Of a stretch of DNA of 64,000 nt, positions 21,946 to 41,940 are shown piece after piece. The position numbers and the translations under genes were made by a program. The notes under the pieces were generated by a model. It saw only the letters and a program-made list of their open reading frames with translations. It was not told the DNA's origin and did not search any database. The stretch is from Escherichia coli. GTDB lineage: Bacteria > Pseudomonadota > Gammaproteobacteria > Enterobacterales > Enterobacteriaceae. Where the stretch lies: the NCBI RefSeq assembly GCF_050920415.1, contig NZ_CP169309.1; one strand, written 5' to 3'. Numbering within the stretch: position 1 is the first letter of the stretch; every line of letters begins with the position of its first letter.

Positions 21946-23625
21946 ATGGCGGAAACAACTAAAGAGCGATTGAACAAACAGTTCGCACAACTTGAAAGCG
22001 AGCGTCAGTCGTTCGAGCCGCACTGGCGCGAGTTGAGTGATTACATCAACCCGCGTGGTTCCCGCTTTCTGACTTCTGAGGTCAACCGTAACGATCGACG
22101 CAATACACGCATTATTGATTCGACCGGGACTATGGCGGCGCGCACTCTCGCCAGCGGCATGATGTCAGGCATCACAAGCCCCGCGCGTCCGTGGTTTCGC
22201 CTGGCTACGCCAGATCCTGAAATGATGGATTATGGCCCTGTTAAGTTGTGGCTTGAGGCGGTGCAGAACCGCATGAACGATATGTTCAATAAGTCGAATC
22301 TCTATCAGTCGCTGCCGCAGTTATACGGAAGCCTCGGCACATACAGCACTGGTGCAATGGCGGTACTGGAGGATGACGATGACATCATTCGCACAATGCC
22401 ATTCCCGATAGGCAGTTACTACCTGGCTAACTCACCTCGTGGCAGTGTGGACACCTGTTTTCGCAAGTTCTCTATGACTGTTCGTCAGCTTGTTCAGGAG
22501 TTCGGGCTAAATAACGTCAGCGAATCCGTAAAAAGCATGTGGGAAAGCGGCACCTACGAGAAGTGGATTGAAGTGATGCATTCGGTTTACCCGAACATTG
22601 ACCGCGATACATCGAAGCTGGATAGCAAGAACAAGCCATTCAAATCGGTTTATTACGAGGTTGGCGGTGATAACGACAAGTTGTTGCGTGAGTCAGGATT
22701 CGATGAGTTTCCAATTATGGCTCCGCGCTGGGAAGTTAACGGCGAAGATGTTTATGGATCATCATGCCCGGGTATGCTGGCGCTTGGACCTGTTAAGGCA
22801 TTGCAGCTTCTCCAGAAGCGCAAGTCGCAGTTGATTGATAAAGCCACCAATCCGCCGATGATTGCTCCGACTTCCCTCAAGAATCAGCGCGCCTCCCTTC
22901 TTCCTGGCGACATCACGTATATCGATCAGATTACTGGTCAGGATGGTTTCAGGCCTGCTTATCTGGTTAACCCCAGTACAGCAGATCTGGTGGCAGACAT
23001 TCAGGACACTCGTCAAATCATTAACAGTGCCTACTTTGTCGATCTGTTCATGATGTTGCAGAACATCAATACCCGTTCGATGCCTGTTGAAGCGGTGATC
23101 GAAATGAAAGAAGAAAAACTTCTGATGTTGGGGCCGGTTCTGGAGCGTCTGAACGACGAATGTCTTAATCCTCTCATTGACCGCGCTTTCTCGATGATGG
23201 TGCGTAAAAACATGCTGCCGCCCCCGCCTGACGCGATGGAAGGTATGCCCCTGAAGGTCGAATACATTTCCGTCATGGCTCAGGCGCAGAAGTCTATCGG
23301 CCTGTCCAGTCTGGCGTCTACGGTCAACTTCATTGGTCAACTTGCGCAAGCGAAACCAGAAGCTCTCGACAAACTCAACGTTGATCAGGCAATCGATGCA
23401 TTCGCTGATATGTCCGGAGTGTCTCCAACCGTCATTGTTCCGCAGGAACAGGTTGAGCAGGCTCGCCAGCAACGGGCACAGCAACAACAGCAGCAACAAA
23501 TGATGGAGATGGGGATGGCGGCGGCACAGGGTGCCAAGACGCTAAGCGAAGCTAAAACTTCGGATCCGAGTGTTTTGTCAGCTATGGCGAATGCAGTTAG
23601 TGGTCAGGGTGGGCAATCACAATGA
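21946..23625 (+). CDS. portal (head-to-tail connector), T7 gp8-like
   Basis: 559 aa; C-terminal QQQ...MEMGMAAAQG tail resembles T7 gp8. Confidence 0.75.
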   Translation: MAETTKERLNKQFAQLESERQSFEPHWRELSDYINPRGSRFLTSEVNRNDRRNTRIIDSTGTMAARTLASGMMSGITSPARPWFRLATPDPEMMDYGPVKLWLEAVQNRMNDMFNKSNLYQSLPQLYGSLGTYSTGAMAVLEDDDDIIRTMPFPIGSYYLANSPRGSVDTCFRKFSMTVRQLVQEFGLNNVSESVKSMWESGTYEKWIEVMHSVYPNIDRDTSKLDSKNKPFKSVYYEVGGDNDKLLRESGFDEFPIMAPRWEVNGEDVYGSSCPGMLALGPVKALQLLQKRKSQLIDKATNPPMIAPTSLKNQRASLLPGDITYIDQITGQDGFRPAYLVNPSTADLVADIQDTRQIINSAYFVDLFMMLQNINTRSMPVEAVIEMKEEKLLMLGPVLERLNDECLNPLIDRAFSMMVRKNMLPPPPDAMEGMPLKVEYISVMAQAQKSIGLSSLASTVNFIGQLAQAKPEALDKLNVDQAIDAFADMSGVSPTVIVPQEQVEQARQQRAQQQQQQQMMEMGMAAAQGAKTLSEAKTSDPSVLSAMANAVSGQGGQSQ

Positions 23626-23918
23626 CAGATTACGAAGACGATCAACTGAAAGAAGAAAACGCCCGTAAGCAACGTGACATGGCACAACGTGAAATTGATG
23701 ACATTCGCTTTGTCATGAGCAGTGAACAGGGGCGTCGCGTTGTCTGGTCTGTGCTGGAGAAAGGCCGGGTGTTTTCCGCTATCTCTCCGATGGATGCTAT
23801 GGCAATGGCATTTAATGAGGGGCAACGCAATCTGGCGCTGGAACTGTTTCAGCGCGTTATGGCGCATTGCCCTGAACAGTATTTGAAGATGGCCAAAGAG
23901 GCCAGTGAACAGGAGTGA
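23622..23918 (+). CDS. hypothetical protein
   Basis: 98 aa, overlaps portal stop by 4 bp. Confidence 0.45.
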   Translation: MTDYEDDQLKEENARKQRDMAQREIDDIRFVMSSEQGRRVVWSVLEKGRVFSAISPMDAMAMAFNEGQRNLALELFQRVMAHCPEQYLKMAKEASEQE

Positions 23919-23920
23919 TC

Positions 23921-24616
23921 ATGAATTTATTTGAGCGTTTGCTGTATCGCCGTCTTTGCAATGAGCAACCAGTCGATGGTGGAGCAGCTCCGGCTGCGTC
24001 AGAACCGTCAGCGCCTGCAGGTGATAACCCTGCTCCAGTTGGTGATCCATCACAATCGGAAGGTGATAAGCCACAACCTGTTGCTGATGGCGATAAACCT
24101 GCTGATGACAAAAAGCCTGAAAACGATAAGCAGGATGAAAAAAAGGACGGCGATAAACCAGAGGGTGCGCCTGAGAAGTACGAGTTTCAGGCTGCCGAAG
24201 GCGTAGAGCTGGATACAGAAGCGTTGAAGGAATTCGAGCCGGTGGCGCGAGAACTTAACCTGACCAACGAGCAAGCGCAAAAGCTGGTTGATGCTTATCC
24301 GAAGATTCTGGCAGGTGTGCAGCAGCGCCAGGCAGAAGCCTGGCAGAAAACAACCGAGCAGTGGGCTGCTGATGTAAAAGCTGACAAAGAAATCGGTGGC
24401 GACAAGTTGATTTCTAACCTTAGCGCCGCACAGCGTGCGCTTGACCAGTTCGGGACACCTGAACTCAAAGAATATCTGAACACCACCGGGCTGGGTAATC
24501 ACCCTGATCTGGTCAAAACGTTCGTGAAAATCGGAAAGGCGATGTCTGAAGATGGCATGGTCACCGGTGGTAATGAAGGCCAGCGTAGTGCGGCCGAAGT
24601 GCTCTATGGCAAATAA
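23921..24616 (+). CDS. scaffolding protein
   Basis: Highly acidic, low complexity, between portal and capsid; AGGAG RBS. Confidence 0.6.
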   Translation: MNLFERLLYRRLCNEQPVDGGAAPAASEPSAPAGDNPAPVGDPSQSEGDKPQPVADGDKPADDKKPENDKQDEKKDGDKPEGAPEKYEFQAAEGVELDTEALKEFEPVARELNLTNEQAQKLVDAYPKILAGVQQRQAEAWQKTTEQWAADVKADKEIGGDKLISNLSAAQRALDQFGTPELKEYLNTTGLGNHPDLVKTFVKIGKAMSEDGMVTGGNEGQRSAAEVLYGK

Positions 24617-24630
24617 GAGAGGAAATGACA

Positions 24631-25617
24631 ATGGCTGTTAAAGGCTTAACTGCGCTAACGCTGGCTGACTGGGGTAAGCGCGTCGATCCAAACGGGAAAG
24701 TCGATAAGATTATCGAGCTTCTCGGTCAAACTAACCCGATCCTTCAGGATATGCCTTTTGTCGAAGGGAACCTTCCTACCGGACACCGAACCACCATTCG
24801 TTCTGGTTTACCTTCAGCTACCTGGCGTTTGCTGAACTATGGCGTACAGCCAAGCAAATCAACCACAGTGCAGGTAACCGATTCCGTTGGCATGCTGGAA
24901 ACCTATGCTGAAGTCGATAAGTCACTGGCTGATCTGAACGGCAATACCGCCGAATTCCGCCTGTCTGAAGACCGCGCATTTATTGAAGCGATGAATCAGC
25001 AGATGGCGCAGACGCTGTTTTATGGTGATTCCAGCGTTAACCCTCAGCAGTTTATGGGACTGTCCTCCCGCTATTCCAGCCTGTCTGCGGGTAATGCTCA
25101 GAACATCATTGATGCTGGTGGCACGGGTACAGATAACACCTCAATCTGGTTAGTGGTGTGGGGCGAAAACACCGTGCATGGCATCTTCCCGAAAGGGCAG
25201 AAGGCTGGCATCCAGATGGAAGATAAAGGCCAGGTGACACTGGAAGATGCTAATGGCGGCAAGTACGAAGGCTATCGCACCCATTATAAATGGGATAACG
25301 GACTTGCTCTGCGTGACTGGCGTTATGTTGTTCGCATTGCAAACATCGATGTCAGCAATCTTTCAGAACCTTCCTCTGCCGCAAATATTGCGAAGTTGAT
25401 GGTTAAAGCACTGCATCGCATTCCAAACCGTGGCATGGGCCGCCCGGTGTTCTACATGAACCGCACTGTAGGCCAGGCTCTTGATCTGCAATCTCTGGAG
25501 AAAACATCTCTGGCGATCAGCGTAAAAGAGACAGAAGGCGAGTGGTGGACTTCATTCCGTGGTGTACCAATCCGTGAAACTGATGCGCTTCTGGAAACAG
25601 AAGCCCGCGTGGTGTAA
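24631..25617 (+). CDS. major capsid protein
   Basis: ~330 aa, position after scaffold; start 24625 or 24631. Confidence 0.75.
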   Translation: MAVKGLTALTLADWGKRVDPNGKVDKIIELLGQTNPILQDMPFVEGNLPTGHRTTIRSGLPSATWRLLNYGVQPSKSTTVQVTDSVGMLETYAEVDKSLADLNGNTAEFRLSEDRAFIEAMNQQMAQTLFYGDSSVNPQQFMGLSSRYSSLSAGNAQNIIDAGGTGTDNTSIWLVVWGENTVHGIFPKGQKAGIQMEDKGQVTLEDANGGKYEGYRTHYKWDNGLALRDWRYVVRIANIDVSNLSEPSSAANIAKLMVKALHRIPNRGMGRPVFYMNRTVGQALDLQSLEKTSLAISVKETEGEWWTSFRGVPIRETDALLETEARVV

Positions 25618-25633
25618 CGCCTGTTATTAACCT

Positions 25634-25653
25634 GTGGGTCGTAACAGACCCAC
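25634..25653 (+). terminator. stable hairpin after capsid gene (no T-tract)
   Basis: gtgggtc-gtaaca-gacccac; position analogous to T7 T-phi. Confidence 0.35.
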
Positions 25654-25668
25654 TAATGGAGAAAGAAG

Positions 25669-26106
25669 ATGATCACCGACAAACTGTTGATGTTCTCCGA
25701 AGCTCAGGCGGTTACGAATACCGCGGCTTCTACTGACGTAATCGATCTCGGTCCAATTGACGGAAAACGTCGTGATATCGGCGTGGGTTACCCGCTTGAG
25801 TTTTGGGCGCTGGTTAACACAGCCGCCGCGGCAAGCGGTGATGCAACTGTAAACATCCAGTTGCAGACGAGTGAGAATAACAGCTCATGGACCACTATTT
25901 ATGATAGTGGCGCACTGGCAAAGACCGCCCTGACAGCAGGTAAACGAGTTGTTTCTGCAAAGGTGCCTGCCGGTGTTCAGCGATATCTGCGTGTTAACTA
26001 CTCCGTCGCAACTGGCCCACTAACGGCTGGCGAATTCACTGCTGGTATCAGTCTTGATGTTGATGCCAATACGCCGTATCCGATCCGCTCAAAAGTAACT
26101 GGTTAA
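25669..26106 (+). CDS. hypothetical virion protein (decoration-like)
   Basis: 145 aa, Gly/Ala/Thr-rich, in capsid gene block. Confidence 0.45.
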   Translation: MITDKLLMFSEAQAVTNTAASTDVIDLGPIDGKRRDIGVGYPLEFWALVNTAAAASGDATVNIQLQTSENNSSWTTIYDSGALAKTALTAGKRVVSAKVPAGVQRYLRVNYSVATGPLTAGEFTAGISLDVDANTPYPIRSKVTG

Positions 26107-26107
26107 G

Positions 26108-26452
26108 GTGATATCGATGTCAGGTGAGAAACCAAGATACCGCGTTATGCGCCTCTCTCATATCCATAACACTCTGTGGCCGGAGGGGGCAGAAATCGAA
26201 TACGAAGGTGAGCCTGGTAGCGCACTGGAACCTGTTAACGATGCAGCCAGACAGGCAAAAGCAAAGGTAGCAGGAAAGGTGACTATGGCAGCAACCAGCA
26301 CCAAAATCATCAACGATGTGTCAGATGATGGTGAACTGGATAAGCTCCGTGAAGAGTACGAATTGCTCTTTAACGAGGAGCCACACCATAACGCCAAAGC
26401 CGAAACGCTCCGCGAGAAGATCGCAGATAAGCGTAAAGAACTGGGCGTGTAA
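26108..26452 (+). CDS. hypothetical protein
   Basis: 114 aa in structural block. Confidence 0.4.
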   Translation: MISMSGEKPRYRVMRLSHIHNTLWPEGAEIEYEGEPGSALEPVNDAARQAKAKVAGKVTMAATSTKIINDVSDDGELDKLREEYELLFNEEPHHNAKAETLREKIADKRKELGV

Positions 26453-26502
26453 GCCTCGCGAATCAGACAAGGGGCTTCGGCCCCTTTATTGCAGGAGTGT
26501 AT

Positions 26503-26826
26503 ATGGAACTCGTAAACCTCAAAACCGGCACTGACAGCTACCAGGATGAGAGCGGAGAAACCAGAACTCGCGATGAATACCCGTGGGGGCTGTGCATCAC
26601 TCTTAATAACGACACATTGAATAAGCTGAAGGCACAACCTCAGGGCGTCGGAACAGAAGTGATGATAACTGCAAAGGCTGTTATTCGAGGCCTGTCTGCC
26701 AGAGAAACTGACGATGGTGTTAATCGCAGCGCCGATCTGCAGATCACTGATATGGCGATCGCTCCTGTTTCCAGGGATGTAGAAAAATCAGCGGCTGAAA
26801 CCCTGTACGGCAATGGGGGTGAGTAA
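26503..26826 (+). CDS. hypothetical protein
   Basis: ~107 aa; stop overlaps next start. Confidence 0.4.
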   Translation: MELVNLKTGTDSYQDESGETRTRDEYPWGLCITLNNDTLNKLKAQPQGVGTEVMITAKAVIRGLSARETDDGVNRSADLQITDMAIAPVSRDVEKSAAETLYGNGGE

Positions 26827-27431
26827 TGGCCTCTGTAGTAGAGATCTGCAATCGTGCGCTGTCCAATATTGGCAATAGCCGCAGCATTAACAGCCTGACG
26901 GAAGCCAGTAAGGAAGCGGGGGAATGTTCGCTGCACTTTGAGGCCTGCCGTGATGCTGTGCTTTCTGATTTTGACTGGAACTTTGCTACCAAACGCGTGG
27001 CGCTTGCAGATACGAGCAATCCACCGCCTGACTGGGAATATGCGTATCAGTACCCGTCAGATTGTCTGCGCATTACTGAAATTATGCTTCCTGGTGTACG
27101 CAATCCAACAGCAGCAATGCGCGTTCAGTACGAAGTTGGTGCAGACACCGACGGAACAGGAAAGTTGATCTACACAGACCAGCCGCAGGCATGGCTCAAG
27201 TATGTCTCTCGCGTTTCAGATGTGAACATGTTTGATGCCATTTTTATGGAGGCGTTGGCCTGGCGTCTTGCGGCAGCCATTAACATGGCGCTGACTGGGA
27301 ATGCGGATCTCGGTACATTTGCTCTCAATATGTACAATCGCGTGATTCTTAGTGCTGGCTCGCATAGCCAGAATGAATCACAGGAACCACAGCCACCGGT
27401 TGACGAGTTTACCATTGCGAGGTTGTCCTGA
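26826..27431 (+). CDS. tail tubular protein A (T7 gp11-like)
   Basis: 201 aa, size and N-terminal pattern like gp11; precedes gp12-like gene. Confidence 0.55.
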   Translation: MASVVEICNRALSNIGNSRSINSLTEASKEAGECSLHFEACRDAVLSDFDWNFATKRVALADTSNPPPDWEYAYQYPSDCLRITEIMLPGVRNPTAAMRVQYEVGADTDGTGKLIYTDQPQAWLKYVSRVSDVNMFDAIFMEALAWRLAAAINMALTGNADLGTFALNMYNRVILSAGSHSQNESQEPQPPVDEFTIARLS

Positions 27432-29902
27432 TGGCTATCAGTTGGATCCAGCCCAGCTTTGCCGGTGGTGAGATTGGACCGTCGTTGTACGGTCGTATCG
27501 ACATGGCGAAGTACCAGGTGGCATTGCGCAAGTGCGATAACTTTATCGTGCGGCAGTATGGCGGCGTTGAGAATCGACCTGGTACGCGTTTTGTCGGTGC
27601 CGCCAAATACCCAAATCGGAAATGCCGCCTGATCCCGTTCCAGTTCTCGACGGTTCAGACCTACGCTCTGGAGTTCGGACACCAGTACATGCGCGTTATC
27701 AAAGATGGTGCGTTGGTGCTGAACAGCAGCAATGTTATTTATGAAATTGCCACGCCATATACTGAAGCCGATCTGTTCCGAATTAAATTCACGCAAAGCG
27801 CCGACGTGCTTACGCTGGTTCACCCGGCATACCCGCCGAAAGAGTTGCGCCGCTATGCGCATGATAACTGGCAACTGGTTGATGTGGTAACGAAGAACGG
27901 GCCATTTGAAGATATCAATATTGACGAGTCAGTGACGGTTTATGCCAGCGCCAGCACCGGGACAATTACGTTAACGGCAAGCGCCTCTATTTTTGGCGCG
28001 GAGCAGGTAGGCAAATTGTTCTATCTGGAACAGCCTGCAGTGGATTCTGTGCCGGTATGGGAAACCAGTAAGAGTACGTCGATTGGCGATATTCGCCGTG
28101 CAGACAGTAACTACTATCGCGCCGTTACAGCAGGCAAAACAGGCACTTTGCGCCCTTCGCATACAGAAGGCACATCATGGGATGGCTGGGGCGGATCCGG
28201 TGATGATGATACCGGCATTGAGTGGGAGTATCTGCACAGTGGTTTTGGCATTGCCCGTATCTCTGCTGCAAATGGAACTACTGCAACTGCCGAGGTGATT
28301 TCCTATATCCCTTCGCAGGTCGTTGGCGAGGATAATGCCAGCTATAAATGGGCTAAATATGCCTGGAACAGTGTTAATGGTTATCCTGGCACTGTTGTTT
28401 ATTATCAACAACGTCTTTACTTCGCCGCATCGACTGCGTTCCCTCAGACTATCTGGGCCAGCCGTACTGGGGATTATAAGGATTTTGGCAAAAGCAATCC
28501 TACGCAGGATGATGACAGAATTATCTACACCTATGCCGGGCGTCAGGTTAATGAGATCCGTCACCTGATTGATGTAGGTTCGCTGGTGGCGCTGACTTCC
28601 GGAGGTGAGTACGTCATCACCGGCGACCAGAACAAAGTGTTAACCCCATCATCATTTGCATTTAGCTCTCAGGGATCAAATGGCTCAAGCAACGTCCCAC
28701 CAATTGCTGTGGCGAATATTGCTCTGTTCGTCCAGGAGAAAGGCAGTGTTGTCCGTGATCTGGCCTACTCATTCGATGTTGACGGCTATCAGGGGAACGA
28801 CCTTACTATCCTTGCCAATCATCTTTTTCAGAAGCACAGCATTGTTGACTGGTGCTTCTCTATTGTCCCTTACTCCAGCGCCTTCTGCATTCGTGATGAC
28901 GGTAAATTACTGGTGATGACCTATTTGCGTGATCAACAGGTTTTTGCATGGGCACCACAGTCCAGTACCGGAAAATATGAAAGCACATGCAGTATCAGCG
29001 AAGGAAATGAAGATGCGGTGTATTTCGTCGTTAACCGAACCGTTAACGGGCAAACAGTGAGATACATCGAGCGGCTGTCCAGCCGTTTATTTACCAGCGA
29101 TGAAGATGCTTTCTTTGTTGATTCTGGCCTTAGCTATGATGGAAGAAATACGTCTGACAGAACGATGACCATCACTGGTGGTTCTGGTGAATGGGATTAC
29201 CGCGTGGAATATACAATCAGTATTTCTGGTGGTGCGTACTTCACCAGTAGTGATGTCGGTGCGCAACTACAATTCCCTTATACCGGAACTGATCCTGATA
29301 CTGGCGATGAAGTGTCAAAAGAATTACGTTGCGACATTATTTCTGTAACCAGCAATACCGCTGTAGTGGTTCGTGCTAACAGGAACGTCCCGCCATCCCT
29401 CAGGAATGTGGCCACCACGAACTGGCAGATGGCGCGCCGGACATTTGGAGGCCTGTCTCATCTTGAAGGCCAGACCGTAAACATTCTCTCTGATGCGAAC
29501 GTGGAACCACAGAAAGTGGTTTCCGGAGGTGCCGTCACGCTGGAATCTCCGGGGGCTGTAGTGCACATCGGCCTGCCAATAACTGCTGAATTCGAAACAC
29601 TGGATATCAACATTAACGGACAGGAAACGCTGCTGGACAAAAAACAGGTGATCCCATCCGTTACTCTGGTTGTGAATGCCAGCCGCGGCATCTGGGCGAC
29701 TACGCCCGGCGGTAAATGGTACGAATATCCACAGCGTGAATTCGAGTTCTACGATGATCCTGTTGATGATGCTACCGGAAAAGTAGAAGTGAAACTGGAC
29801 AGTAACTGGGGCAAAAACGGACGTGTAAAAATCCGTCAGCTTGATCCGTTGCCGCTGTCTGTTCTTGCCGTTATTCCTCGCCTTACTGTTGGGGGATTCT
29901 GA
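27431..29902 (+). CDS. tail tubular protein B (T7 gp12-like)
   Basis: 823 aa; N-terminal pattern similar to T7 gp12. Confidence 0.65.
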   Translation: MAISWIQPSFAGGEIGPSLYGRIDMAKYQVALRKCDNFIVRQYGGVENRPGTRFVGAAKYPNRKCRLIPFQFSTVQTYALEFGHQYMRVIKDGALVLNSSNVIYEIATPYTEADLFRIKFTQSADVLTLVHPAYPPKELRRYAHDNWQLVDVVTKNGPFEDINIDESVTVYASASTGTITLTASASIFGAEQVGKLFYLEQPAVDSVPVWETSKSTSIGDIRRADSNYYRAVTAGKTGTLRPSHTEGTSWDGWGGSGDDDTGIEWEYLHSGFGIARISAANGTTATAEVISYIPSQVVGEDNASYKWAKYAWNSVNGYPGTVVYYQQRLYFAASTAFPQTIWASRTGDYKDFGKSNPTQDDDRIIYTYAGRQVNEIRHLIDVGSLVALTSGGEYVITGDQNKVLTPSSFAFSSQGSNGSSNVPPIAVANIALFVQEKGSVVRDLAYSFDVDGYQGNDLTILANHLFQKHSIVDWCFSIVPYSSAFCIRDDGKLLVMTYLRDQQVFAWAPQSSTGKYESTCSISEGNEDAVYFVVNRTVNGQTVRYIERLSSRLFTSDEDAFFVDSGLSYDGRNTSDRTMTITGGSGEWDYRVEYTISISGGAYFTSSDVGAQLQFPYTGTDPDTGDEVSKELRCDIISVTSNTAVVVRANRNVPPSLRNVATTNWQMARRTFGGLSHLEGQTVNILSDANVEPQKVVSGGAVTLESPGAVVHIGLPITAEFETLDININGQETLLDKKQVIPSVTLVVNASRGIWATTPGGKWYEYPQREFEFYDDPVDDATGKVEVKLDSNWGKNGRVKIRQLDPLPLSVLAVIPRLTVGGF

Positions 29903-30366
29903 TGATTGGTGTTCAAATTATTCCCGCAACCGAAGAGCATCTTCAGATGATTTTGCCGGATGTTCGTCAGGCTGATATTGACGAACTGTATGCGGTATCG
30001 CTGATGACTACCGAAGATGCGCTGCGTGTTGGTCTGCGCACTGCGACTATGGCCTGGTCAGGGTTCGCGAACGGAGAACTGGTAACCATGTTTGGTGTAT
30101 CTCCGGCGTCAATGATCGGTGGCAATGGTACGCCCTGGCTGGTCGGGACCAGCCGTATTGAAAAATATCAGAAGACATTTCTTCGCCACTGCCACCCTGT
30201 ATTGCGGCAGATGCTGGCAGTTTATCCGCGCCTGGAAAACTACGTCGACGAGCGAAACCATGTTGCCAAAGCATGGCTCCACTGGCTTGGATTCAGGCTT
30301 GAAGAAGCCGCGCCTTATGGTGCTCTTGGTCTTAATTTCCACAGATTTCACATGGAGAGAAAATAA
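29902..30366 (+). CDS. internal virion protein (gp13-like position)
   Basis: 154 aa; overlapping stop/start chain. Confidence 0.45.
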   Translation: MIGVQIIPATEEHLQMILPDVRQADIDELYAVSLMTTEDALRVGLRTATMAWSGFANGELVTMFGVSPASMIGGNGTPWLVGTSRIEKYQKTFLRHCHPVLRQMLAVYPRLENYVDERNHVAKAWLHWLGFRLEEAAPYGALGLNFHRFHMERK

Positions 30367-30911
30367 TGTGCGATCCGGTTATTGCTGGTGGCGCAATGCT
30401 CGCCATGAGTGGCATTCAGGCATACACCCAGTACCAACAGGGAAAGTATGCCTCGAAGGTTGCAGAAGCGAACGCAGATATAGCCACAGCTCAGGCAAAT
30501 GATGCAATAAATAGGGGTAACGCTGAAGCTGAGCAACGGCGCAGAGAGACCCGACAGCGGCTTGGTACACAGGCGGCGACAATGGGGGCGACCGGCGCCG
30601 ATTTATCTACAGGTAACGCGCTGGATATATTTGGTGACACTGCTCAGTTTGGCGCCCTTGATTCGCTGACGACGGTGAATAACGCGCAACGCGAGGCTTA
30701 CGGTTATCAGGTTCAGGCTGCTAACTATAAAGCAGAAGCCAGTTCAGCCCGTAAACAGGGGAATGTGGGAGCAGCAACAACATTGCTCACTGCGCCTCTG
30801 AAGGCATACGGTGCGTACCAGATGTTTGGTGGGACGTGGAGTCCGTTTACTCAAAGCACTCCTGCGCCAATCGGGGCAGCAGCAGGAACCAGATTACCTG
30901 GAGGATTATAA
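30366..30911 (+). CDS. internal virion protein (gp14-like position)
   Basis: 181 aa Ala/Gln-rich. Confidence 0.45.
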   Translation: MCDPVIAGGAMLAMSGIQAYTQYQQGKYASKVAEANADIATAQANDAINRGNAEAEQRRRETRQRLGTQAATMGATGADLSTGNALDIFGDTAQFGALDSLTTVNNAQREAYGYQVQAANYKAEASSARKQGNVGAATTLLTAPLKAYGAYQMFGGTWSPFTQSTPAPIGAAAGTRLPGGL

Positions 30912-33424: not shown

Positions 33425-35223
33425 GTTACTTTGGCCTTAATCCAGTAAACCAGAATCAGCAGCTTGACGAAGCAGCATCAAATCCAGCTGGCTTTAACAG
33501 CGATGTTGGTTTTTTCGACAATGCTGTAGGAGCGGCATTGTCTGGTTTGTACTCCGGGCTGGTGGCAAAGCCAGATCAGTTGCTCTGGGCAGGGATGGAT
33601 AAAATCGTATCCCCGATTGCTCAGTTTGTTAACGAAAACACCTCGCTCAATGACACTTCAGTTTCATACATTGCCGAGCAGAGAAAACTAGCAGAGCAGC
33701 AGGTTAAGCGGCTGACGCCTGATGCCGCGACAACCGGAACCGCCGGGCAGGTTCTTTATGGGTTGTTCGATATGGGCGGGCAGGCTGTTATCGGTACAAC
33801 GCTCGGTGGTCCGGCCGGAGGTGCTGCGGCGGTAACTTCGCTACAGGGTTTTTCTGAGTTTGAACGGCTGACAGCACAGGGTGTTGATTTCAGGACGGCG
33901 CAGGAAGCGGGATTAGTGCAGGGTATTACTGCTGGTGCCGGAACAATGATCCCTATGAGCCTCGGGTTACGTGCTGGTGGTGCGCTGGCGGAAGGTGTGG
34001 CGGCTCAGCTTGCGCGGACGGGTGAAAGTTCAGTGCGACGCGCCGCAGCAACAGCAGTAAGTGCAACGCCAGATATTGCCTATGCCGCAGGTACAAATAT
34101 TGCGTTCGGTATGGCACAGCGTGGGCTTACTGCAAAAACGCTTCGTGATGGTGGCTATAGCGAAATGGCTAACCAGTATGATGTGTTGGATCGACAGGCA
34201 ATTGCTATTGATGCTGTTCTTGGGGTGGCGTTTGGTGGTGTCGGCAGATTTATTAACTCTCGCGGCGAGTCTACAAGCGCACCAAATTTTTCACCAGTTG
34301 ATATTGATGCTGCACTGGCGGCGAATGCCGCTCATCATGCTGAAATTGATATTGCGCCCGGCGTGCCGATCAACGTGCTTTCGCGCAATTCTCACATTCA
34401 GGCTCTGCGAAAAGCTATGTCTGATGTTAGCCAGGGGAGACCTGTAGACGTTGCCAGCATTGTTGAGTCTGCATCTTTCAGTGAAATTCCTGGGCGCAAG
34501 AGTCTGCTGTCTCAGGCAGTTAATGAGGCTCTGTCATCTGTAGATGATGGAGTAACGGCGCGCGCTATAGAAAATCGGTTGCTTGAAGAACAGGCCGCGC
34601 AGCTTTTGCCGCGTGGAGATAGACAGGTTTACCAGTCTGAAATCGCTAATAGCCAACGAATTATTGAAAATCTCACTGAACAGCGTGCACAAATTCTTGC
34701 AGAAGAGCCAACCGGTAGCGGTAAAGCTTTGTCTCGTGCTCGATCAGATAAACAGGCCAGACTTCGTGATATTGATCAACGAATCCGGCAGGCACAAGAA
34801 CGCCTGGAATTTTCCCGTAACGCGTTGGCACCGCACGAGCCTGGAGGTCAGTTTTTTGAAGCTCGAGCAGAACTGGCACGGCGACAGCAGGCAGAAAGTG
34901 AACTTAATGCTCAGGCTGTTTCATTCTATAAAACAGCAGAGGTCAGGACGCCAGACGAAGTAGCTCCTTTTGAGCCCGGTAAGATATTGCAACAGACAGA
35001 ACAAAAAATGATGGCAGATCCGGCAGGAGATATTGATCTGCGTATAGCTGAAGACTCGCTGCTTGAATCACCTGACATGATAATCACCGTGCTGGATGAT
35101 GATGGTAATCCACAATCGCGCAGTGCGCGTGAAGTACTGGATGAAGCTAACAGGGAAAGTGAGCAGGCAATACAGGATTCCAGCCTGTTTGATGTTGCTG
35201 TGGCGTGTTTCTTGAGAGGTTAA
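33421..35223 (+). CDS. internal virion/ejection protein
   Basis: 600 aa, Ala/Gly-rich, overlaps flanking genes. Confidence 0.55.
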   Translation: MSYFGLNPVNQNQQLDEAASNPAGFNSDVGFFDNAVGAALSGLYSGLVAKPDQLLWAGMDKIVSPIAQFVNENTSLNDTSVSYIAEQRKLAEQQVKRLTPDAATTGTAGQVLYGLFDMGGQAVIGTTLGGPAGGAAAVTSLQGFSEFERLTAQGVDFRTAQEAGLVQGITAGAGTMIPMSLGLRAGGALAEGVAAQLARTGESSVRRAAATAVSATPDIAYAAGTNIAFGMAQRGLTAKTLRDGGYSEMANQYDVLDRQAIAIDAVLGVAFGGVGRFINSRGESTSAPNFSPVDIDAALAANAAHHAEIDIAPGVPINVLSRNSHIQALRKAMSDVSQGRPVDVASIVESASFSEIPGRKSLLSQAVNEALSSVDDGVTARAIENRLLEEQAAQLLPRGDRQVYQSEIANSQRIIENLTEQRAQILAEEPTGSGKALSRARSDKQARLRDIDQRIRQAQERLEFSRNALAPHEPGGQFFEARAELARRQQAESELNAQAVSFYKTAEVRTPDEVAPFEPGKILQQTEQKMMADPAGDIDLRIAEDSLLESPDMIITVLDDDGNPQSRSAREVLDEANRESEQAIQDSSLFDVAVACFLRG

Positions 35224-36152: not shown

Positions 36153-37015
36153 GCTTAGTCAGCCGTTGTCTCCGGGTGTCGCGTGCGCAGTTGCACGTCA
36201 TTCTCAGACGAACCGATGACTGGATGGATGGCCGCCGCAGTCGTCACACTGATGATACGGATGTGCTTCTCCGTATACACCATGTTATCGGAGAGCTGCC
36301 CACGTATGGTTATCGTCGGGTATGGGCGCTGCTTCGCAGACAGGCAGAACTTGATGGTATGCCTGCGATCAATGCCAAACGTGTTTACCGGATCATGCGC
36401 CAGAATGCGCTGTTGCTTGAGCGAAAACCTGCTGTACCGCCATCGAAACGGGCACATACAGGCAGAGTGGCCGTGAAAGAAAGCAATCAGCGATGGTGCT
36501 CTGACGGGTTCGAGTTCTGCTGTGATAACGGAGAGAGACTGCGTGTCACGTTCGCGCTGGACTGCTGTGATCGTGAGGCACTGCACTGGGCGGTGACTAC
36601 TGGCGGCTTCAACAGTGAAACAGTACAGGACGTCATGCTGGGAGCGGTGGAACGCCGCTTCGGCAACGATCTTCCGTCGTCTCCAGTGGAGTGGCTGACG
36701 GATAATGGTTCATGCTACCGGGCTAATGAAACACGCCAGTTCGCCCGGATGTTGGGACTTGAACCGAAGAACACGGCGGTGCGGAGTCCGGAGAGTAACG
36801 GAATAGCAGAGAGCTTCGTGAAAACGATAAAGCGTGACTACATCAGTATCATGCCCAAACCAGACGGGTTAACGGCAGCAAAGAACCTTGCAGAGGCGTT
36901 CGAGCATTATAACGAATGGCATCCGCATAGTGCGCTGGGTTATCGCTCGCCACGGGAATATCTGCGGCAGCGGGCTTGTAATGGGTTAAGTGATAACAGA
37001 TGTCTGGAAATATAG
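36110..37015 (+). CDS. insD: IS2 transposase OrfB
   Basis: 301-aa ORF, DDE catalytic domain; matches recalled InsD. Confidence 0.9.
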
Positions 37016-39048
37016 GGGCAAATCCAGTACGTGACCTGGTATATGAAATGCGGGGGCAAAATACTGGCAATGCTAAAGCAAGAAAAGGTGCTAAGGCGTG
37101 GAGAGAAGTTACAGAGCTGCTGCGCCGCCGGTTTAATGATGCTGGTGGGGACATTGGCTATCTCGAAAACTGGGGGATCCCTCAACATCATTCTATGGAA
37201 AAGGTTGGGGCGGTATCAAAGGATAAGTGGGTTAGCGATGTTATAGGTAAGCTGGATCGCAAATATTATATCCGAGCCGATGGACAACTGATGAACGATG
37301 CCGAGTTGTCTGCATTTCTTGGAGAGGCTTATAACACGATCGCTACTGGTGGGCTGAATAAGCTTACTGATACCGGAATGCGAATTTCCGGCGCACGTGC
37401 TAACCGTGGTAATGCATCACGACAGATACATTTCAAAGATGCAGATTCCTATCTGCAATATCAGCAACTTTATGGCGATCGCTCTCTATGGGAAATCATG
37501 GTCGGTCACCTGGAAGGTATCAGTAAAGATATTGCACTGGTGGAAACATATGGCCCAAACCCCGATCATGTTTTCCGCTCTCTTCTTGATCAGGTGAAGG
37601 CAGAAACGGCAACAGCTAACCCGAGTAAAACCGGTAAAGTCGAGCGGCTGGCGAACAACACAGAGAATCTGTACAACTTTATTTCCGGAAAGACACAGCC
37701 TGTAGCAAATCCGCACATCGCGCGATGGTCTGACAATATCCGCAACTGGCTGGTTGCCAGCAGACTCGGATCCGCGTTGCTGTCATCGTTCTCTGATCTT
37801 GGAACCATGTATCTGTCTGCGAAGGTGACCAACCTTCCAATGAACCAGTTATTCCGCAACCAGCTTGAAGCTATGGACCCAACGAACCGTACTGAGCTTG
37901 CGCGGGCGCGCCGCGCTGGTCTGGCGATGGAATCTCTACTTGGCAGCGTTAACCGCTGGGCGATGGATAATATGGGGCCGTCAGTGTCTCGTTGGGCTGC
38001 AACGGCGGTAATGCGTGCCAGTGGGCTTACAGCATGGTCAGATGCGCACAAGCGCGCCTATGGCGTAACCATGATGGGAAGCCTGGGAGAAGTAGTGTCA
38101 CGGACACCAGACCTTCGTAGCCTCGATGACTCTGATTTTCGTATCCTGAAAAGCAAAGGGATTACTGACACAGACTGGAGCGTATGGAAGCTGGCGCAAC
38201 AGGAGGACTGGGGGAACGGTAATAATACGATGCTGACACCGGAAAGCATTATGCGTATCCCTGATTCAGCAGTTAAACATCTTGGTGAGCCTGAACGCGT
38301 GAAATTTGAGGCAATGCGTAAACTGCTCGGTGCCGTAACTGAAGAAGTTGATATGGCTGTTATTACACCGGGAGCACGTGAGCAACTGATAACCGGTTCT
38401 GGTATTCAGCGTGGAACATGGAAAGGTGAATTAACGAGAAGTGTTTTCCTGTTTAAATCGTTCCCTATCTCGGTGGTTATGCGTCACTGGTCACGCGCTA
38501 TGGGTATGCCGTCTGCTGGTGGGCGTGCGGCATATATTGCGACGTTTATTGCCAGCACGACCATTCTTGGCGCTTTGTCTCAGCAACTTAACGACCTTGC
38601 GTCTGGTCGTAATCATCGCGAGATGACAGGAGAAGATGCTGCTAAATTTTGGCTTGGTGCTCTACTGAAAGGTGGTGGTCTTGGCCTTTACGGTGACTTT
38701 TTATTGTCAGATCACACTAGGTACGGAAGCGGCGCGCTGGCGTCGATGCTTGGCCCGGTAGCTGGTCTGGTTGATGACGTAGTGAAGATTGCTCAGGGCA
38801 TACCGTTAAATGCTGTGGAAGGGAAGAATGAGCAGACTGGTGGTGATCTGGTTAAGCTGGGGAAGGGGCTGATGCCAGGTGCGAATCTCTGGTACTTGAA
38901 GGCGGCTCTCGATCACATGATCTTTAACCAGATGCAGGAGTATTTTTCACCAGGCTATTTGCGTAAAATGGAGCAACGTTCGAAGAAAGAGTTTAACCAG
39001 ACATACTGGTGGCGACCACAGGATGTCACTCCGCAATAAGGATGAGAA

Positions 39049-39209: not shown

Positions 39210-39233
39210 GGCCGCTTTCGCGGCCTTTTCTTT
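39210..39233 (+). terminator. rho-independent terminator after virion-protein operon
   Basis: ggccgc-tttc-gcggcc then TTTTCTTT. Confidence 0.7.
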
Positions 39234-39507
39234 ATGTGGTTTGTTTTCGTAGTTGTTCGGCACAATAGTCGAGATGTGTTTGCAGATCCTGCATAGACAT
39301 CTGTGAGCTGGTGACGTAGTTAATCAGTGCAGTCAGTTCGGCAAGTGGGCCATCGACATTAAATCCATCCTTATCGAGATCCCGGAGTAATTTCATCAAG
39401 TGCGATCCTTCCACCAGTGACCTGACGCCTCCCGGCGTGTGAATCCTTTCGGTAAATCCCTCTTCCAGTGGATAGTGATACTGCTGCATCTTATCTTCTC
39501 CATGCAA
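39232..39507 (-). CDS. hypothetical protein (opposite-strand moron before tail fibre)
   Basis: 91 aa (or 85 from second ATG); family not recognised. Confidence 0.4.
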   Translation of the reverse strand: MHGEDKMQQYHYPLEEGFTERIHTPGGVRSLVEGSHLMKLLRDLDKDGFNVDGPLAELTALINYVTSSQMSMQDLQTHLDYCAEQLRKQTT

Positions 39508-39565
39508 TAACTGTATGTTTATACAGTATCAAATAATTTGTTTGCTATCCAGCACGTTTTGCGAA

Positions 39566-39580
39566 TCACCTGAAAGGTAA
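39566..39580. promoter_or_regulatory. operator-like palindrome TCACC TGAAA GGTAA
   Basis: Divergent region between moron and tail fibre; extra half-site near 39623. Confidence 0.5.
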
Positions 39581-39684
39581 TATCTGCTCACATTAACACT
39601 CTTTCCATCCATATATGGTTTTTCAGGTAATAGAATAACCAGATATGCGGCGCAACGGGTGCTGCGACTATCTGGAGATTTAAC

Positions 39685-41940
39685 ATGACGGTCTCAACCG
39701 AAGTTGACCACAACGAATACACAGGCAATGGCGTTACGACTTCATTCCCTTATACCTTTAGGGTTTTCAAGGAATCTGATCTGGTAGTGCAGGTGGTTGA
39801 CCTTGACGAAAATATCGCTGTGCTGGCTCTGGATACTGATTACACTGTCACTGGGGCTGGTGGATATAACGGCGGTAATGTAATTCTGTCGAAGGCGTTA
39901 GCTAACGGTTACCAGATTTCTATATCACGAGAGCTCCCGGTTACGCAGGAAACTGATTTGCGTAATCAGGGGAAGTTCTTTGCAGAAGTGCATGAGGATG
40001 CTTTTGATAAGCTAACGATGCTGATCCAGCAGGTTCGAAGTTGGTTTAGCTTGGCGCTGCGCAAGCCGTCATTCGTGGCAAATTATTATAACGCGCTGAA
40101 CAACTATATTCGAAACCTGAAAGACCCGGTAAACCCGCAGGATGCATCCACAAAGAATTATGTGGACAGTACGGTTTTATCGAATATCGACCATACAATC
40201 CGTGTTCCTGATTCTTATATCGATCCGCTGCCACCTCTCGCTCAACTTGAAGGAAGCATAATCGGCATCGCCAACGGTAAGCCCGTTCCGTTCCCTGTGC
40301 CTTCAGGAACGGCGGCTGACGTATTCAACCAGTTGGCCAGCAGCGCTGACGGGAAAGGTGATGCGCTGATAACAGTGAAGCAGCCTTACCAGGGGGCAAT
40401 TTCTCTTTCGCAGCATATAAAAAATGCACAAGCCATTAGTGTTGTTGATTTTGGAGCGACAATTGATGGAACGCTTCACCCTTTAAGCGAGATATTTTCA
40501 ACACTATCAGCTGCTCAGATGGTATATCCATTTGTTTCATCTCTATCTCAATCTGTTGATTATGCTGCGCTTCAGTCCGCATGTAACACGGGAAAAACAG
40601 TGCTTATTCCAAAGGGAACTGGTTACTATAATTCAACTATTTTTCTGAAAAACTCCGTTAGGATTGTTGGAGAGGGAACTGATACAATAAATAGAGCGCA
40701 ATCATTTATGTCTATTGTTGGTAATATTTCAGCCTTTGCTTTAGATCAAGGTGATTCCCTATCGACAAAAATGATTCAGATTTTTATTGATGGTCTTTAT
40801 ATTTTCTATGATCCAGGAACCACACCAACGAATCCTGAAAATGATGGTGGGAAAATTGCATTTAATTTCTACTCGACAATTCCAAATTCAACAAGCTTGG
40901 AAATGTCTGAAATTAAAAACTGTACAGTTCATGGTGCATGGTCATGCTTTAATGATCAGACTGGCACATACTTGACAAAACTTACGAATGTGTGGGCCAG
41001 AAACTGCCATAATGGTTTTACAAAAGGAACTGGCACTACCATTCTGATGGAAAGATGTTATACATCTGGATGTATATCACCATATCAGTTTGGTTCTGTC
41101 TTTGCAGCTACAATGATTAACTGTGCCATGGATGGATCAAATATTTCGTTAAACGCAGGTTCGCTTGGTGGGGCTGGCGTTCATGTTCTTAACACACATA
41201 GTTTTAACATTATTGGTTTTGATGCGGAGGGTAACACCATCTCTACAGATGGTTATGGAGAGGCAGCACTATTCCATTTCGAAAATAGTAGTGGTGGCAT
41301 TTCTGGCCTGACTGCACATCAGAACAGCATGCGAAGTGTTGCGCCAAGTGATGCTGGTGTAGTTTCCTACATCAGGGCGTCAGGTAGCAGCGATGTTAAA
41401 ATTGAGTCATCAGAAGATGATTTATCTGACACCAACACAGTTGCATATACTGGGTCTGGGTATCCCATCATGCTACATGCAACTGACACAGCTAAAATAA
41501 GCGTCTTTAATAGCAGATTCAGGGCGACTACCACTGGTACCCCTGTCTTAAGTACGCTAAGTACTGGTGATGTATCATGGTATGACTGCCCTAAAAAAAC
41601 AGGACTTATCGTAGATGGTTATTCACAAATAACATCTAAGGAAGGATTGCAAACATCATGCTTCTATACCAGTAAAGGCTCTACTGCTGTTGCTGAAAAT
41701 ACTCCGACAACACTTTTCTCTCTACCAGATTCGCAAGGTACTTACATTATTAGCGTATGGGTGGCTGGAAGCGGAGAAAATTACGCATCTACACAACTGG
41801 CAATGTATGATGGAGATAAGCTAATTCTTGTTGCGTTAAAAATAGCAGCATTTCTTAGTTTTTCAGCAACAGGGAGAATTGTAACCATTACAAGCCAGGT
41901 GGCAGGCACTTTAAACTGGACTTACACTAAAATAGGTTGA
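39685..41940 (+). CDS. tail fibre/tailspike with T7 gp17-like N-terminal adaptor domain
   Basis: 751 aa; N-terminal ...YTGNGVTTSFPYTFRVFKESDLVV...DTDYTV pattern; Gly/Ser/Thr-rich C-terminal region. Confidence 0.7.
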   Translation: MTVSTEVDHNEYTGNGVTTSFPYTFRVFKESDLVVQVVDLDENIAVLALDTDYTVTGAGGYNGGNVILSKALANGYQISISRELPVTQETDLRNQGKFFAEVHEDAFDKLTMLIQQVRSWFSLALRKPSFVANYYNALNNYIRNLKDPVNPQDASTKNYVDSTVLSNIDHTIRVPDSYIDPLPPLAQLEGSIIGIANGKPVPFPVPSGTAADVFNQLASSADGKGDALITVKQPYQGAISLSQHIKNAQAISVVDFGATIDGTLHPLSEIFSTLSAAQMVYPFVSSLSQSVDYAALQSACNTGKTVLIPKGTGYYNSTIFLKNSVRIVGEGTDTINRAQSFMSIVGNISAFALDQGDSLSTKMIQIFIDGLYIFYDPGTTPTNPENDGGKIAFNFYSTIPNSTSLEMSEIKNCTVHGAWSCFNDQTGTYLTKLTNVWARNCHNGFTKGTGTTILMERCYTSGCISPYQFGSVFAATMINCAMDGSNISLNAGSLGGAGVHVLNTHSFNIIGFDAEGNTISTDGYGEAALFHFENSSGGISGLTAHQNSMRSVAPSDAGVVSYIRASGSSDVKIESSEDDLSDTNTVAYTGSGYPIMLHATDTAKISVFNSRFRATTTGTPVLSTLSTGDVSWYDCPKKTGLIVDGYSQITSKEGLQTSCFYTSKGSTAVAENTPTTLFSLPDSQGTYIISVWVAGSGENYASTQLAMYDGDKLILVALKIAAFLSFSATGRIVTITSQVAGTLNWTYTKIG

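What the first reader, a model, noticed from the sequence alone, without database searches (positions are those of the whole stretch)
21946..41940. T7-like virion module in a temperate phage with no RNA polymerase gene
Gene order is portal, scaffold, capsid, tail tubular A and B, four internal virion proteins and a tail fibre with a gp17-like N-terminus, as in T7 genes 8-17. The rest of the genome is lambdoid, the terminase genes sit upstream of the portal, three extra small genes are inserted after the capsid gene, and no phage RNA polymerase is present. Transcription would therefore rely on host polymerase, which fits the operator-guarded promoters.
Basis: inference. Interest (0 to 1): 0.6.

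Follow-up and report, generated by a model that had tools for sequence, protein, structure and literature searches.

The report
IS2-broken phiV10/epsilon15-type podovirus prophage
The region is the virion gene block of an ordinary phiV10/epsilon15-type (Uetakevirus) prophage inserted at the end of guaA; its distant kinship to the T7 tail and DNA-ejection genes, and its lack of a phage RNA polymerase, are real but already published, and here an IS2 insertion has broken one essential virion gene.

Summary
Window 21946-41940 encodes, on the + strand, portal, scaffold candidate, capsid, adaptor (tubular A), nozzle (tubular B), internal virion proteins and a tailspike. This is collinear with T7 genes 8-17. 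Terminase lies upstream and there is no phage RNA polymerase.

It is not new. The block is 98% identical in DNA to phage phiV10 (genus Uetakevirus, type epsilon15). The prophage (6047-45901) uses the published 17-bp att core at the 3' end of guaA.

T7 kinship is real for these parts:
- portal (Pfam PF12236)
- IVP-A (same PHROG as T7 gp13)
- tailspike anchor (PHROG families shared with T7 gp17)

The capsid (epsilon15 gp7/BPP-1 family), two decoration proteins and the terminase match no T7 family by sequence. Hardies et al. 2016 already described this relationship.

- There are five internal-protein genes, not four.
- Two of the "three extra small genes" are capsid cement/staple proteins.
- The "fibre" is probably a tailspike with a swapped receptor-binding domain.
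- IS2 (35696-37026) splits the T7 gp16-type gene, so the prophage is probably defective.

Ten operator-like palindromes lie in intergenic regions ahead of the early, replication-distal, morphogenesis, tailspike and lysis gene blocks (one inside the annotated terS start).

The parts
6047..6063 (.). attL core ATTGAGTGGGAATGATT, overlapping the last codons and stop of guaA
   Evidence: 17-bp exact repeat with 45885-45901. The same sequence is published as attP/attB of phiV10, epsilon15 and vB_EcoP_ZX5 (PMC9782041). guaA identified.
18409..20555 (+). terminase small (18409-19083) and large (19080-20555) subunits, upstream of the portal
   Evidence: phrog_51 at 2.6e-58; phrog_5902 and phrog_2. Equivalent to phiV10 p01/p02.
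21620..21634 (.). operator-like palindrome TTACCTGAAAGGTAA ahead of the morphogenesis operon
   Evidence: The pattern TYACC-N5-GGTRA occurs 11 times against 0.14 expected. epsilon15 has an annotated repressor site at the same relative place.
21946..23625 (+). portal protein, T7 gp8 family
   Evidence: Pfam PF12236 at 4.6e-187. PDB 8ck0 Carin-1 portal at 2e-179. Reciprocal PHROG hits with T7 gp8.
23622..23918 (+). 98-aa conserved protein of unknown role (epsilon15 gp5 homologue)
   Evidence: phrog_528. 99% identical to phiV10 p08.
23915..24616 (+). 233-aa scaffold candidate (epsilon15 gp6 homologue; legacy label 'protease')
   Evidence: phrog_458 'protease'. No Pfam or NCBIfam peptidase match. 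It sits between portal and capsid. The capsid protein has no long prodomain, so a separate scaffold is expected; this step is inference.
24625..25617 (+). major capsid protein, epsilon15 gp7 / BPP-1 family (no detectable sequence similarity to T7 gp10)
   Evidence: Pfam PF20911 at 2.3e-149. PDB 3j4u BPP-1 at 9.5e-129 and 3j40 epsilon15 gp7 at 2e-85. No similarity to T7 gp10.
25669..26106 (+). 145-aa capsid cement/decoration protein, BPP-1 type
   Evidence: PDB 3j4u_H cementing protein at 5.4e-24; 8cjz_B Carin-1 decoration protein at 4.9e-21.
26108..26452 (+). 114-aa conserved protein of unknown role (epsilon15 gp9 position)
   Evidence: phrog_590. No PDB match.
26497..26826 (+). 109-aa capsid staple protein, epsilon15 gp10 type
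   Evidence: PDB 3j40_N gp10 at 1.3e-20.
26826..27431 (+). head-to-tail adaptor (tail tubular protein A, T7 gp11 fold)
27431..29902 (+). tail nozzle (tail tubular protein B, T7 gp12 fold)
29902..30366 (+). internal virion protein A (T7 gp13 homologue)
   Evidence: phrog_308 at 6.2e-62. T7 gp13 falls in the same phrog_308 at 1.1e-42.
30366..30911 (+). internal virion protein B (T7 gp14-type core protein)
   Evidence: phrog_418 'internal virion protein'. The 100% identical protein in E. coli FT130 is named 'virion core protein, T7 gp14 family' in RefSeq. Direct BLASTP to T7 gp14 is not significant.
30911..33424 (+). 837-aa internal/ejection protein with a lytic transglycosylase domain (epsilon15 gp15)
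   Evidence: phrog_992, with matches starting at ORF residue 26. Residues 274-423 match PDB 9vvp Gp29 at 2e-37 and endolysin 7q47. The start is as in phiV10 p18.
33421..35223 (+). 600-aa internal virion protein candidate (epsilon15 gp16)
   Evidence: phrog_1145. 97% identical to phiV10 p19. Proposed as an IVP-C equivalent by synteny in PMC4819975.
35229..35695 (+). 5' fragment of the 824-aa internal virion protein D gene (T7 gp16 / epsilon15 gp17 type), cut by IS2
   Evidence: phrog_684 positions 1-161 of 840. Removing IS2 and one GTACG copy restores an 824-aa ORF 99.4% identical to phiV10 gp20. The IVP-D assignment is from PMC4819975.
35696..37026 (+). IS2 (1331 bp), flanked by the 5-bp target duplication GTACG at 35691-35695 and 37027-37031
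   Evidence: Terminal sequences and duplication read directly. Two IS3-family transposase ORFs. No complete E. coli genome shares this junction.
37032..39039 (+). 3' fragment of the internal virion protein D gene
   Evidence: phrog_684 positions 157-831 of 840. Restored-ORF test.
39566..39580 (.). operator-like palindrome TCACCTGAAAGGTAA ahead of the tailspike gene
   Evidence: epsilon15 has an annotated repressor site ahead of gene 20.
39685..41940 (+). tailspike: conserved T7 gp17-type N-terminal anchor (about residues 1-160) plus an exchanged receptor-binding domain, predicted to be a beta-helix
   Evidence: The anchor shares phrog_1640, 8460 and 27277 with the T7 gp17 N-terminus. hhalign is collinear, E 0.016. 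Homologues at 62% identity carry PF03906. Residues 212-356 match the N-terminal parts of solved tailspikes (LKA1 gp49, phi297 gp27, Sf6). A pectate-lyase-like Pfam hit is weak, E 0.0087. DNA similarity to phiV10 ends at 40166. 98% identical to the FT130 prophage protein.
41976..43835 (-). 619-aa O-antigen acetylase (low-GC moron), in place of the shorter phiV10 oac
   Evidence: phrog_6705 at 9.3e-179. GC 0.37. The phiV10 oac position is shown.
45885..45901 (.). attR core ATTGAGTGGGAATGATT
   Evidence: An empty site (guaA followed directly by yfgI) is seen in strain MFDS1022581.

Best explanation
Window 21946-41940 is the morphogenesis block of a phiV10/epsilon15-type (genus Uetakevirus) temperate podovirus. 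The prophage spans 6047-45901 and is integrated at the 3' end of guaA.

Inferred working of the intact virion:
- A T7 gp8-family portal carries a dodecameric gp11-type adaptor and a hexameric gp12-type nozzle.
- Six trimeric tailspikes dock on these through a gp17-type N-terminal anchor and recognise O-antigen.
- Internal proteins (gp13- and gp14-type, a transglycosylase-bearing protein, a 600-aa protein and a gp16-type protein) are packed in the head. They are ejected to build a trans-envelope channel for the DNA.
- The head shell is an epsilon15/BPP-1-type HK97-fold capsid with cement and staple proteins. It is filled by a terminase unrelated by sequence family to T7's (headful packaging is my inference and was not tested).

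All transcription uses the host RNA polymerase. Ten copies of a TYACC-N5-GGTRA palindrome lie in the immunity region and ahead of the late gene blocks. They would let the prophage repressor silence early and late genes directly.

In this copy IS2 splits the gp16-type gene. The prophage therefore most likely cannot make infectious particles.

Shown here: gene identities, fold matches, att sites, IS2 anatomy, absence of an RNA polymerase gene, and operator over-representation. Inferred: stoichiometries, the ejection mechanism, repressor binding and loss of infectivity.
For: - DNA identity is 98% to phiV10, vB_EcoP_ZX5 and relatives over 13.8 kb. Whole-prophage collinearity with phiV10 is shown. 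I summed length times identity over the alignments by hand: about 81% of the 38.5-kb IS2-free prophage.
- The att core is identical to the published attP, and an empty attB exists.
- The portal is in Pfam PF12236.
- PHROGs are shared with T7 gp8, gp13 and gp17.
- The RefSeq name 'T7 gp14 family' is attached to the identical 181-aa protein.
- The capsid, cement and staple proteins match solved BPP-1 and epsilon15 chains.
- There is no T7 RNA polymerase hit.
- The operator pattern occurs 11 times against 0.14 expected, and epsilon15's annotated repressor sites have the same sequence and positions.
- IS2 excision in silico restores a protein 99.4% identical to phiV10 gp20.
- Literature: Hardies et al. 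2016 relate epsilon15 gp11-gp17 to T7 tubular A/B and internal virion proteins (PMC4819975).
Against: - Direct BLASTP of the portal, capsid, adaptor, nozzle, 181-aa protein and tailspike against their T7 counterparts is not significant.
- Pfam finds nothing for the adaptor or nozzle. Kinship for these two therefore rests on predicted structures.
- No strong sigma-70 consensus promoter was found next to the two late operators scanned. Late transcription may need an activator.
- The scaffold assignment is positional only.
- Loss of infectivity from the IS2 insertion is argued from my recollection, not checked in a paper, that T7 gene 16 mutants make non-infective particles. It was not tested.
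Confidence: 0.93

Rival explanations
1. It is a true T7-family (Autographiviridae) phage that recently lost its RNA polymerase and picked up lysogeny genes.
For: Gene order matches T7 genes 8-17. The portal, gp13-type protein and gp17-type anchor share families with T7.
Against: Similarity to T7 proteins is undetectable by BLASTP. The capsid and terminase belong to other sequence families. The closest relatives are all temperate and belong to the epsilon15 group, including the solved BPP-1 virion proteins; epsilon15 itself lacks a polymerase. Hardies et al. place the epsilon15/T7 split very deep.
Confidence: 0.02
2. The virion module is P22-like (Lederbergvirus type) rather than T7-like.
Confidence: 0.02
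3. The prophage is still fully functional: the two fragments of the split gp16-type gene complement each other, or the gene is dispensable.
For: All other genes are intact and 95-100% identical to phiV10. The 3' fragment has an in-frame ATG at 37000 inside the IS2 end. The tailspike gene lies behind its own operator-bearing intergenic region.
Against: The insertion removes continuity at residue 156 of 824 and adds a stop after four foreign codons. The gene is conserved across the epsilon15 group as the T7 gp16 equivalent. The phiV10 Bro-N anti-repressor gene is also missing.
Confidence: 0.07

Closest known systems
Escherichia phage phiV10 (Uetakevirus phiV10) and close relatives such as vB_EcoP_ZX5, phiv142-3 and PAS61
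   Same: 98% DNA identity across terminase through the internal protein genes. Structural proteins are 95-100% identical. The att core, guaA integration site, immunity region and tRNA-Arg(UCU) are the same.
   Different: - IS2 lies in the gp20 homologue.
- The tailspike receptor-binding domain is exchanged; only the first ~160 aa are conserved.
- A 619-aa acetylase replaces the shorter oac.
- The Bro-N anti-repressor region is absent.
- Parts of the recombination region and the 16-18 kb early region differ.
- By my hand sum, about 81% of the genome is identical, which I believe is below the usual 95% species threshold.
Salmonella phage epsilon15 (type of the group; solved capsid 3J40) and Bordetella phage BPP-1 (solved capsid 3J4U)
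   Same: Gene-for-gene order gp1-gp20. The adaptor is 85% and the nozzle 88% identical to epsilon15. Operator palindromes are the same. The capsid, cement and staple proteins match the solved chains.
   Different: The capsid protein scores much higher against the BPP-1 chain (E 9.5e-129) than against epsilon15 gp7 (E 2e-85; 43% identity). The 600-aa and 824-aa proteins are only 28-32% identical to epsilon15 gp16 and gp17.
Escherichia phage T7 genes 8-17 (Autographiviridae)
   Same: - Same order: portal, scaffold position, capsid, adaptor, nozzle, internal proteins, fibre.
- Portal in the same Pfam family.
- gp11 and gp12 folds.
- gp13 in the same PHROG.
- gp17-type anchor.
   Different: - No RNA polymerase, and a temperate lifestyle.
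- Terminase lies upstream and matches different PHROG families.
- The capsid is in a different sequence family, and there are decoration proteins that I believe T7 lacks.
- The transglycosylase domain sits on the third internal protein rather than on the gp16 equivalent.
- An extra 600-aa protein is present.
- A probable tailspike replaces the fibre.
Solved epsilon15-group and allied tails: Cobetia phage Carin-1 (8CK0/8CK1/8CJZ) and Legionella LME-1 (9EFK)
   Same: These are the best sequence and structure matches for the portal, adaptor, nozzle, decoration protein and tailspike anchor.
   Different: They infect different hosts and identity is only 20-46%. Their lifestyles and remaining genes were not examined here.

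Membership tests
Genus Uetakevirus (epsilon15/phiV10-like temperate podoviruses) | Nucleotide identity of about 70% or more over the genome to a member (ICTV genus convention, from my knowledge) | tested here: met
   Ten collinear blastn segments cover about 32.2 kb of the 38.5-kb IS2-free prophage at 84-98% identity to phiV10. My hand sum gives about 81% overall.
Genus Uetakevirus (epsilon15/phiV10-like temperate podoviruses) | epsilon15-type gene order gp1-gp20 with orthologous structural proteins | tested here: met
   The 13 proteins from portal to the 600-aa protein and the restored 824-aa protein align one-to-one with phiV10 (95-100%) and epsilon15 (28-88%). The terminase genes and the tailspike anchor are shared as well.
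Genus Uetakevirus (epsilon15/phiV10-like temperate podoviruses) | Integration by a P4-type integrase at the 3' end of guaA with core ATTGAGTGGGAATGATT | tested here: met
   Core repeats at 6047-6063 and 45885-45901. Integrase matches phrog_1. Published attP in PMC9782041.
Genus Uetakevirus (epsilon15/phiV10-like temperate podoviruses) | Short-tailed (podovirus) particle morphology | not testable with these tools
   Needs electron microscopy. It is predicted from the adaptor and nozzle folds and from the absence of tail tube, sheath and tape-measure genes.
Autographiviridae (T7-like phages) | Phage-encoded single-subunit RNA polymerase | tested here: not met
   tblastn of T7 gp1 against the window gives a best E of 1.2. 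No ORF in the prophage is large enough and left without another PHROG family match.
Autographiviridae (T7-like phages) | T7-type portal, gp11 adaptor and gp12 nozzle | tested here: met
Autographiviridae (T7-like phages) | T7-type capsid protein and terminase, with terminase downstream of the fibre gene | tested here: not met
   The capsid is PF20911/phrog_212, against T7 phrog_267. Terminase lies upstream at 18409-20555 and matches phrog_51, 5902 and 2.
Lambdoid phages | Lambda-type gene order: immunity, replication, Q antiterminator, lysis, then terminase and head/tail genes | tested here: not met
   CI/Cro-like, O/P-like, RecET-like and resolvase modules are present. The lysis cassette (43983-45774) follows the tailspike and lies next to attR. 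No Q-type antiterminator was found among the ORFs searched.
P22-like phages (Lederbergvirus) | P22-type portal and gp4/gp10/gp26 tail | tested here: not met

The most novel reading that the evidence does not exclude
The ten TYACC-N5-GGTRA palindromes include single sites ahead of the packaging, morphogenesis, tailspike and lysis blocks. They could mean that phiV10-type phages silence every late operon directly with the prophage repressor. That would be a distributed-operator circuit with no lambda-style antitermination cascade. Sites of this kind are annotated in the epsilon15 record, but I found no report of their being tested in the papers I read. A second open point is whether the phiV10-type capsid carries both a BPP-1-type cement protein and an epsilon15-type staple protein at once.
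Probability: 0.35. Interest if true: 0.3.

Novelty: already known. Interest (0 to 1): 0.1.

Why it matters
It matters little beyond correct annotation. The region should be labelled a defective Uetakevirus (phiV10-like) prophage at guaA.

The modest points of value are:
- a naturally IS2-inactivated copy of the gp16-type ejection protein gene
- another example of tailspike receptor-domain and O-antigen acetylase exchange, which is useful for serogroup-specific receptor-binding protein catalogues (PMC10408124)
- a clean set of putative repressor operators ahead of late operons that could be tested experimentally

Tried and rejected
- Pairwise BLASTP of the portal, capsid, adaptor, nozzle, 181-aa protein and tailspike against T7 gp8, gp10, gp11, gp12, gp14 and gp17 found nothing significant. 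Kinship had to be tested with profiles and predicted structures.
- Pfam gave no hit for the adaptor, nozzle or 233-aa protein, and only E 0.38 for Phage_T7_tail.
- NCBIfam gave nothing for ten structural proteins.
- Sequence-profile searches of the PDB with family alignments did not reach T7 gp11 or gp12.
- My first operator pattern used a 7-base spacer and found nothing; the correct spacer is 5.
- The consensus promoter scan near two late operators found no + strand candidate beside either operator.
- A literature search by PDB codes returned irrelevant papers.
- Loci L002 and L005 were not visible to the Python sandbox, so those comparisons were done with the compare and translate tools.
- Siphovirus or myovirus origin was rejected. 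The only 'tape measure' PHROG hit is the shared transglycosylase domain.

Full report
**What is there**

The + strand of 21946-41940 carries a tight series of ORFs. PHROG, Pfam and PDB searches identify them:
- portal, 21946-23625
- a 98-aa protein
- a 233-aa scaffold candidate
- major capsid protein, 24625-25617
- three small proteins of 145, 114 and 109 aa
- adaptor (tubular A), 26826-27431
- nozzle (tubular B), 27431-29902
- five internal-protein genes of 154, 181, 837, 600 and 824 aa
- tailspike, 39685-41940

Terminase small and large subunit genes lie upstream at 18409-20555.

**Identity of the element**

The 13.8-kb block from portal to the IS2 site is 98% identical in DNA to phage phiV10, vB_EcoP_ZX5, phiv142-3, PAS61 and O157 typing phages. 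It is 75-82% identical to Enterobacter phage Tyrion and to Salmonella phages including epsilon15.

Alignment with the whole phiV10 genome shows a circularly permuted, collinear prophage from 6047 to 45901. The ends carry the 17-bp repeat ATTGAGTGGGAATGATT. The left copy overlaps the stop codon of guaA. This is the published attP/attB of phiV10, epsilon15 and ZX5 (PMC9782041). Strain MFDS1022581 has a 100% identical flank and an empty site, with guaA followed directly by yfgI.

By my hand sum of the alignments, overall identity to phiV10 is about 81% of the IS2-free prophage. That is genus level (Uetakevirus) but, I believe, below the species threshold.

**How T7-like is it?**

Direct BLASTP against T7 gp8, gp10, gp11, gp12, gp14 and gp17 is not significant. 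Deeper tests separate two classes.

Related to T7:
- The portal is in Pfam PF12236, the T7 gp8 family (E 4.6e-187). T7 gp8 and the window portal hit each other's PHROGs.
- The 154-aa protein lies in the same PHROG as T7 gp13.
- The 181-aa protein is 100% identical to a RefSeq protein named 'virion core protein, T7 gp14 family'.
- The tailspike N-terminus shares three PHROGs with the T7 gp17 N-terminus. It aligns collinearly by hhalign (E 0.016), and relatives at 62% identity carry PF03906.

Not T7-like by sequence:
- The capsid protein is in the epsilon15 gp7 family (PF20911). It matches BPP-1 3J4U at 9.5e-129 and epsilon15 3J40 at 2e-85.
- The 145-aa protein is the BPP-1-type cement protein and the 109-aa protein is the epsilon15 gp10 staple.
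- The terminase subunits match different PHROG families from T7's.
- The transglycosylase domain sits on the 837-aa protein rather than on the gp16 equivalent.

**Prior knowledge**

Hardies et al. 2016 (PMC4819975) already joined the epsilon15 and T7 tubular B families by HMM-HMM comparison. [quoted passage not shown] They named epsilon15 gp17 the IVP-D (T7 gp16) homologue and gp15/gp16 the IVP-C candidates.

The epsilon15 RefSeq record itself cites an HHpred hit of gp11 to T7 tubular protein A, and annotates repressor sites ahead of late genes. Uetakevirus prophages in E. coli have already been surveyed for tailspike anchor/receptor-domain modularity and for the O-antigen modification gene that follows the tailspike gene (PMC10408124).

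**No RNA polymerase; operators**

tblastn with T7 RNA polymerase finds nothing. Every sizeable ORF in the prophage matches some other PHROG family.

The palindrome TYACC-N5-GGTRA occurs 11 times in the window against 0.14 expected, and ten copies are inside the prophage. Their positions are:
- two pairs flanking the repressor gene: 12264 and 12326; 13038 and 13086
- a pair after the P-like gene: 15369 and 15431
- single sites at the start of terS (18455), ahead of the morphogenesis operon (21620), ahead of the tailspike (39566) and ahead of the lysis cassette (43872)

The epsilon15 sites annotated as repressor-binding have the same sequence and positions. However, a simple consensus scan found no strong sigma-70 promoter beside the two late sites I scanned, so an activator may be involved.

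'Lambdoid' describes the immunity, O/P-like replication and RecET-like modules. It does not describe the overall order, because the lysis cassette lies next to attR.

**State of this copy**

A 1331-bp IS2 lies at 35696-37026, flanked by the duplication GTACG. It splits the 824-aa gp16-type gene after codon 156. Removing it in silico restores a protein 99.4% identical to phiV10 gp20.

No complete E. coli genome in the collection shares this junction. Strain FT130 carries an IS2-free relative with the same tailspike (98% identical) and an equally long acyltransferase gene at the same position.

DNA similarity of the tailspike gene to phiV10 stops at 40166. The remainder is about 52% identical to tailspikes of unrelated coliphages. 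It is followed by a low-GC 619-aa O-antigen acetylase in place of the phiV10 oac. The phiV10 Bro-N anti-repressor region is missing. I infer that the prophage is defective for producing infectious particles.

**Verdict**

They describe the well-known epsilon15/phiV10 architecture, so novelty is 'already known' and interest is low.

Noticed in passing
window 21221-21297 (- strand); L001 (phiV10) 2853-2929: A tRNA-Arg (anticodon UCU) gene lies on the minus strand between the terminase and portal genes (ARAGORN; Rfam 72 bits). phiV10 has the same gene, where it overlaps the annotated CDS PhiV10p04. No tRNA feature appears in the phiV10 RefSeq table. The first 25 kb of epsilon15 has none.
   Followed up: partly
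window 47919-51475: Downstream of the prophage the host gene pdeF (yfgF) appears split by an IS3-family element. The transposase ORFs are 49043-49930 and 49930-256 on the minus strand, i.e. 49043-50256. A 373-aa 5' part and a 384-aa EAL-domain 3' part flank the element. pdeF is one 2.2-kb gene in strain MFDS1022581.
   Followed up: partly
window 100-6046: The host flank (ratA-like adhesin, xseA, guaB, guaA) is only 90-95% identical to 5407 of 5425 complete E. coli genomes. It is 100% identical to one (MFDS1022581) and 95-99% identical to 17. The host may belong to a divergent or cryptic Escherichia lineage, or this region may be recombinant.
   Followed up: no
window 35696-37026: This IS2 copy is only about 97-98% identical to the IS2 copies found in complete E. 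coli genomes over its first ~200 bp. The ORF beginning at an ATG inside the right IS2 end (37000) runs in frame into the 3' part of the interrupted virion gene.
   Followed up: no
window 39232-39684 versus L001 (phiV10) 19530-20543: About 1 kb of phiV10 carrying the Bro-N anti-repressor gene (p23) and p22 is absent here. The window joins phiV10 coordinate 19530 directly to 20543. The homologous Bro-N protein acted as an anti-repressor in vB_EcoP_ZX5 (PMC9782041), so induction behaviour may differ.
   Followed up: partly
window 24625-26826: The capsid protein scores much higher against the solved BPP-1 capsid chain (E 9.5e-129) than against epsilon15 gp7 (E 2e-85; 43% identity). The adaptor and nozzle, in contrast, are 85-88% identical to epsilon15. 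This points to a head-gene exchange within the epsilon15 group. Both a BPP-1-type cement protein and an epsilon15-type staple protein are encoded.
   Followed up: partly
window 63924-63938: One further match to the operator pattern (TTACCGACGAGGTGA) lies outside the prophage, near the end of the window. It is probably chance, since shuffles give up to one.
   Followed up: no
window 18455-18469: An operator-like palindrome lies 46 nt inside the annotated terS ORF (start 18409). In epsilon15 the equivalent site is upstream of terS, and the PHROG match begins at residue 29. The true terS start may therefore be further downstream.
   Followed up: no
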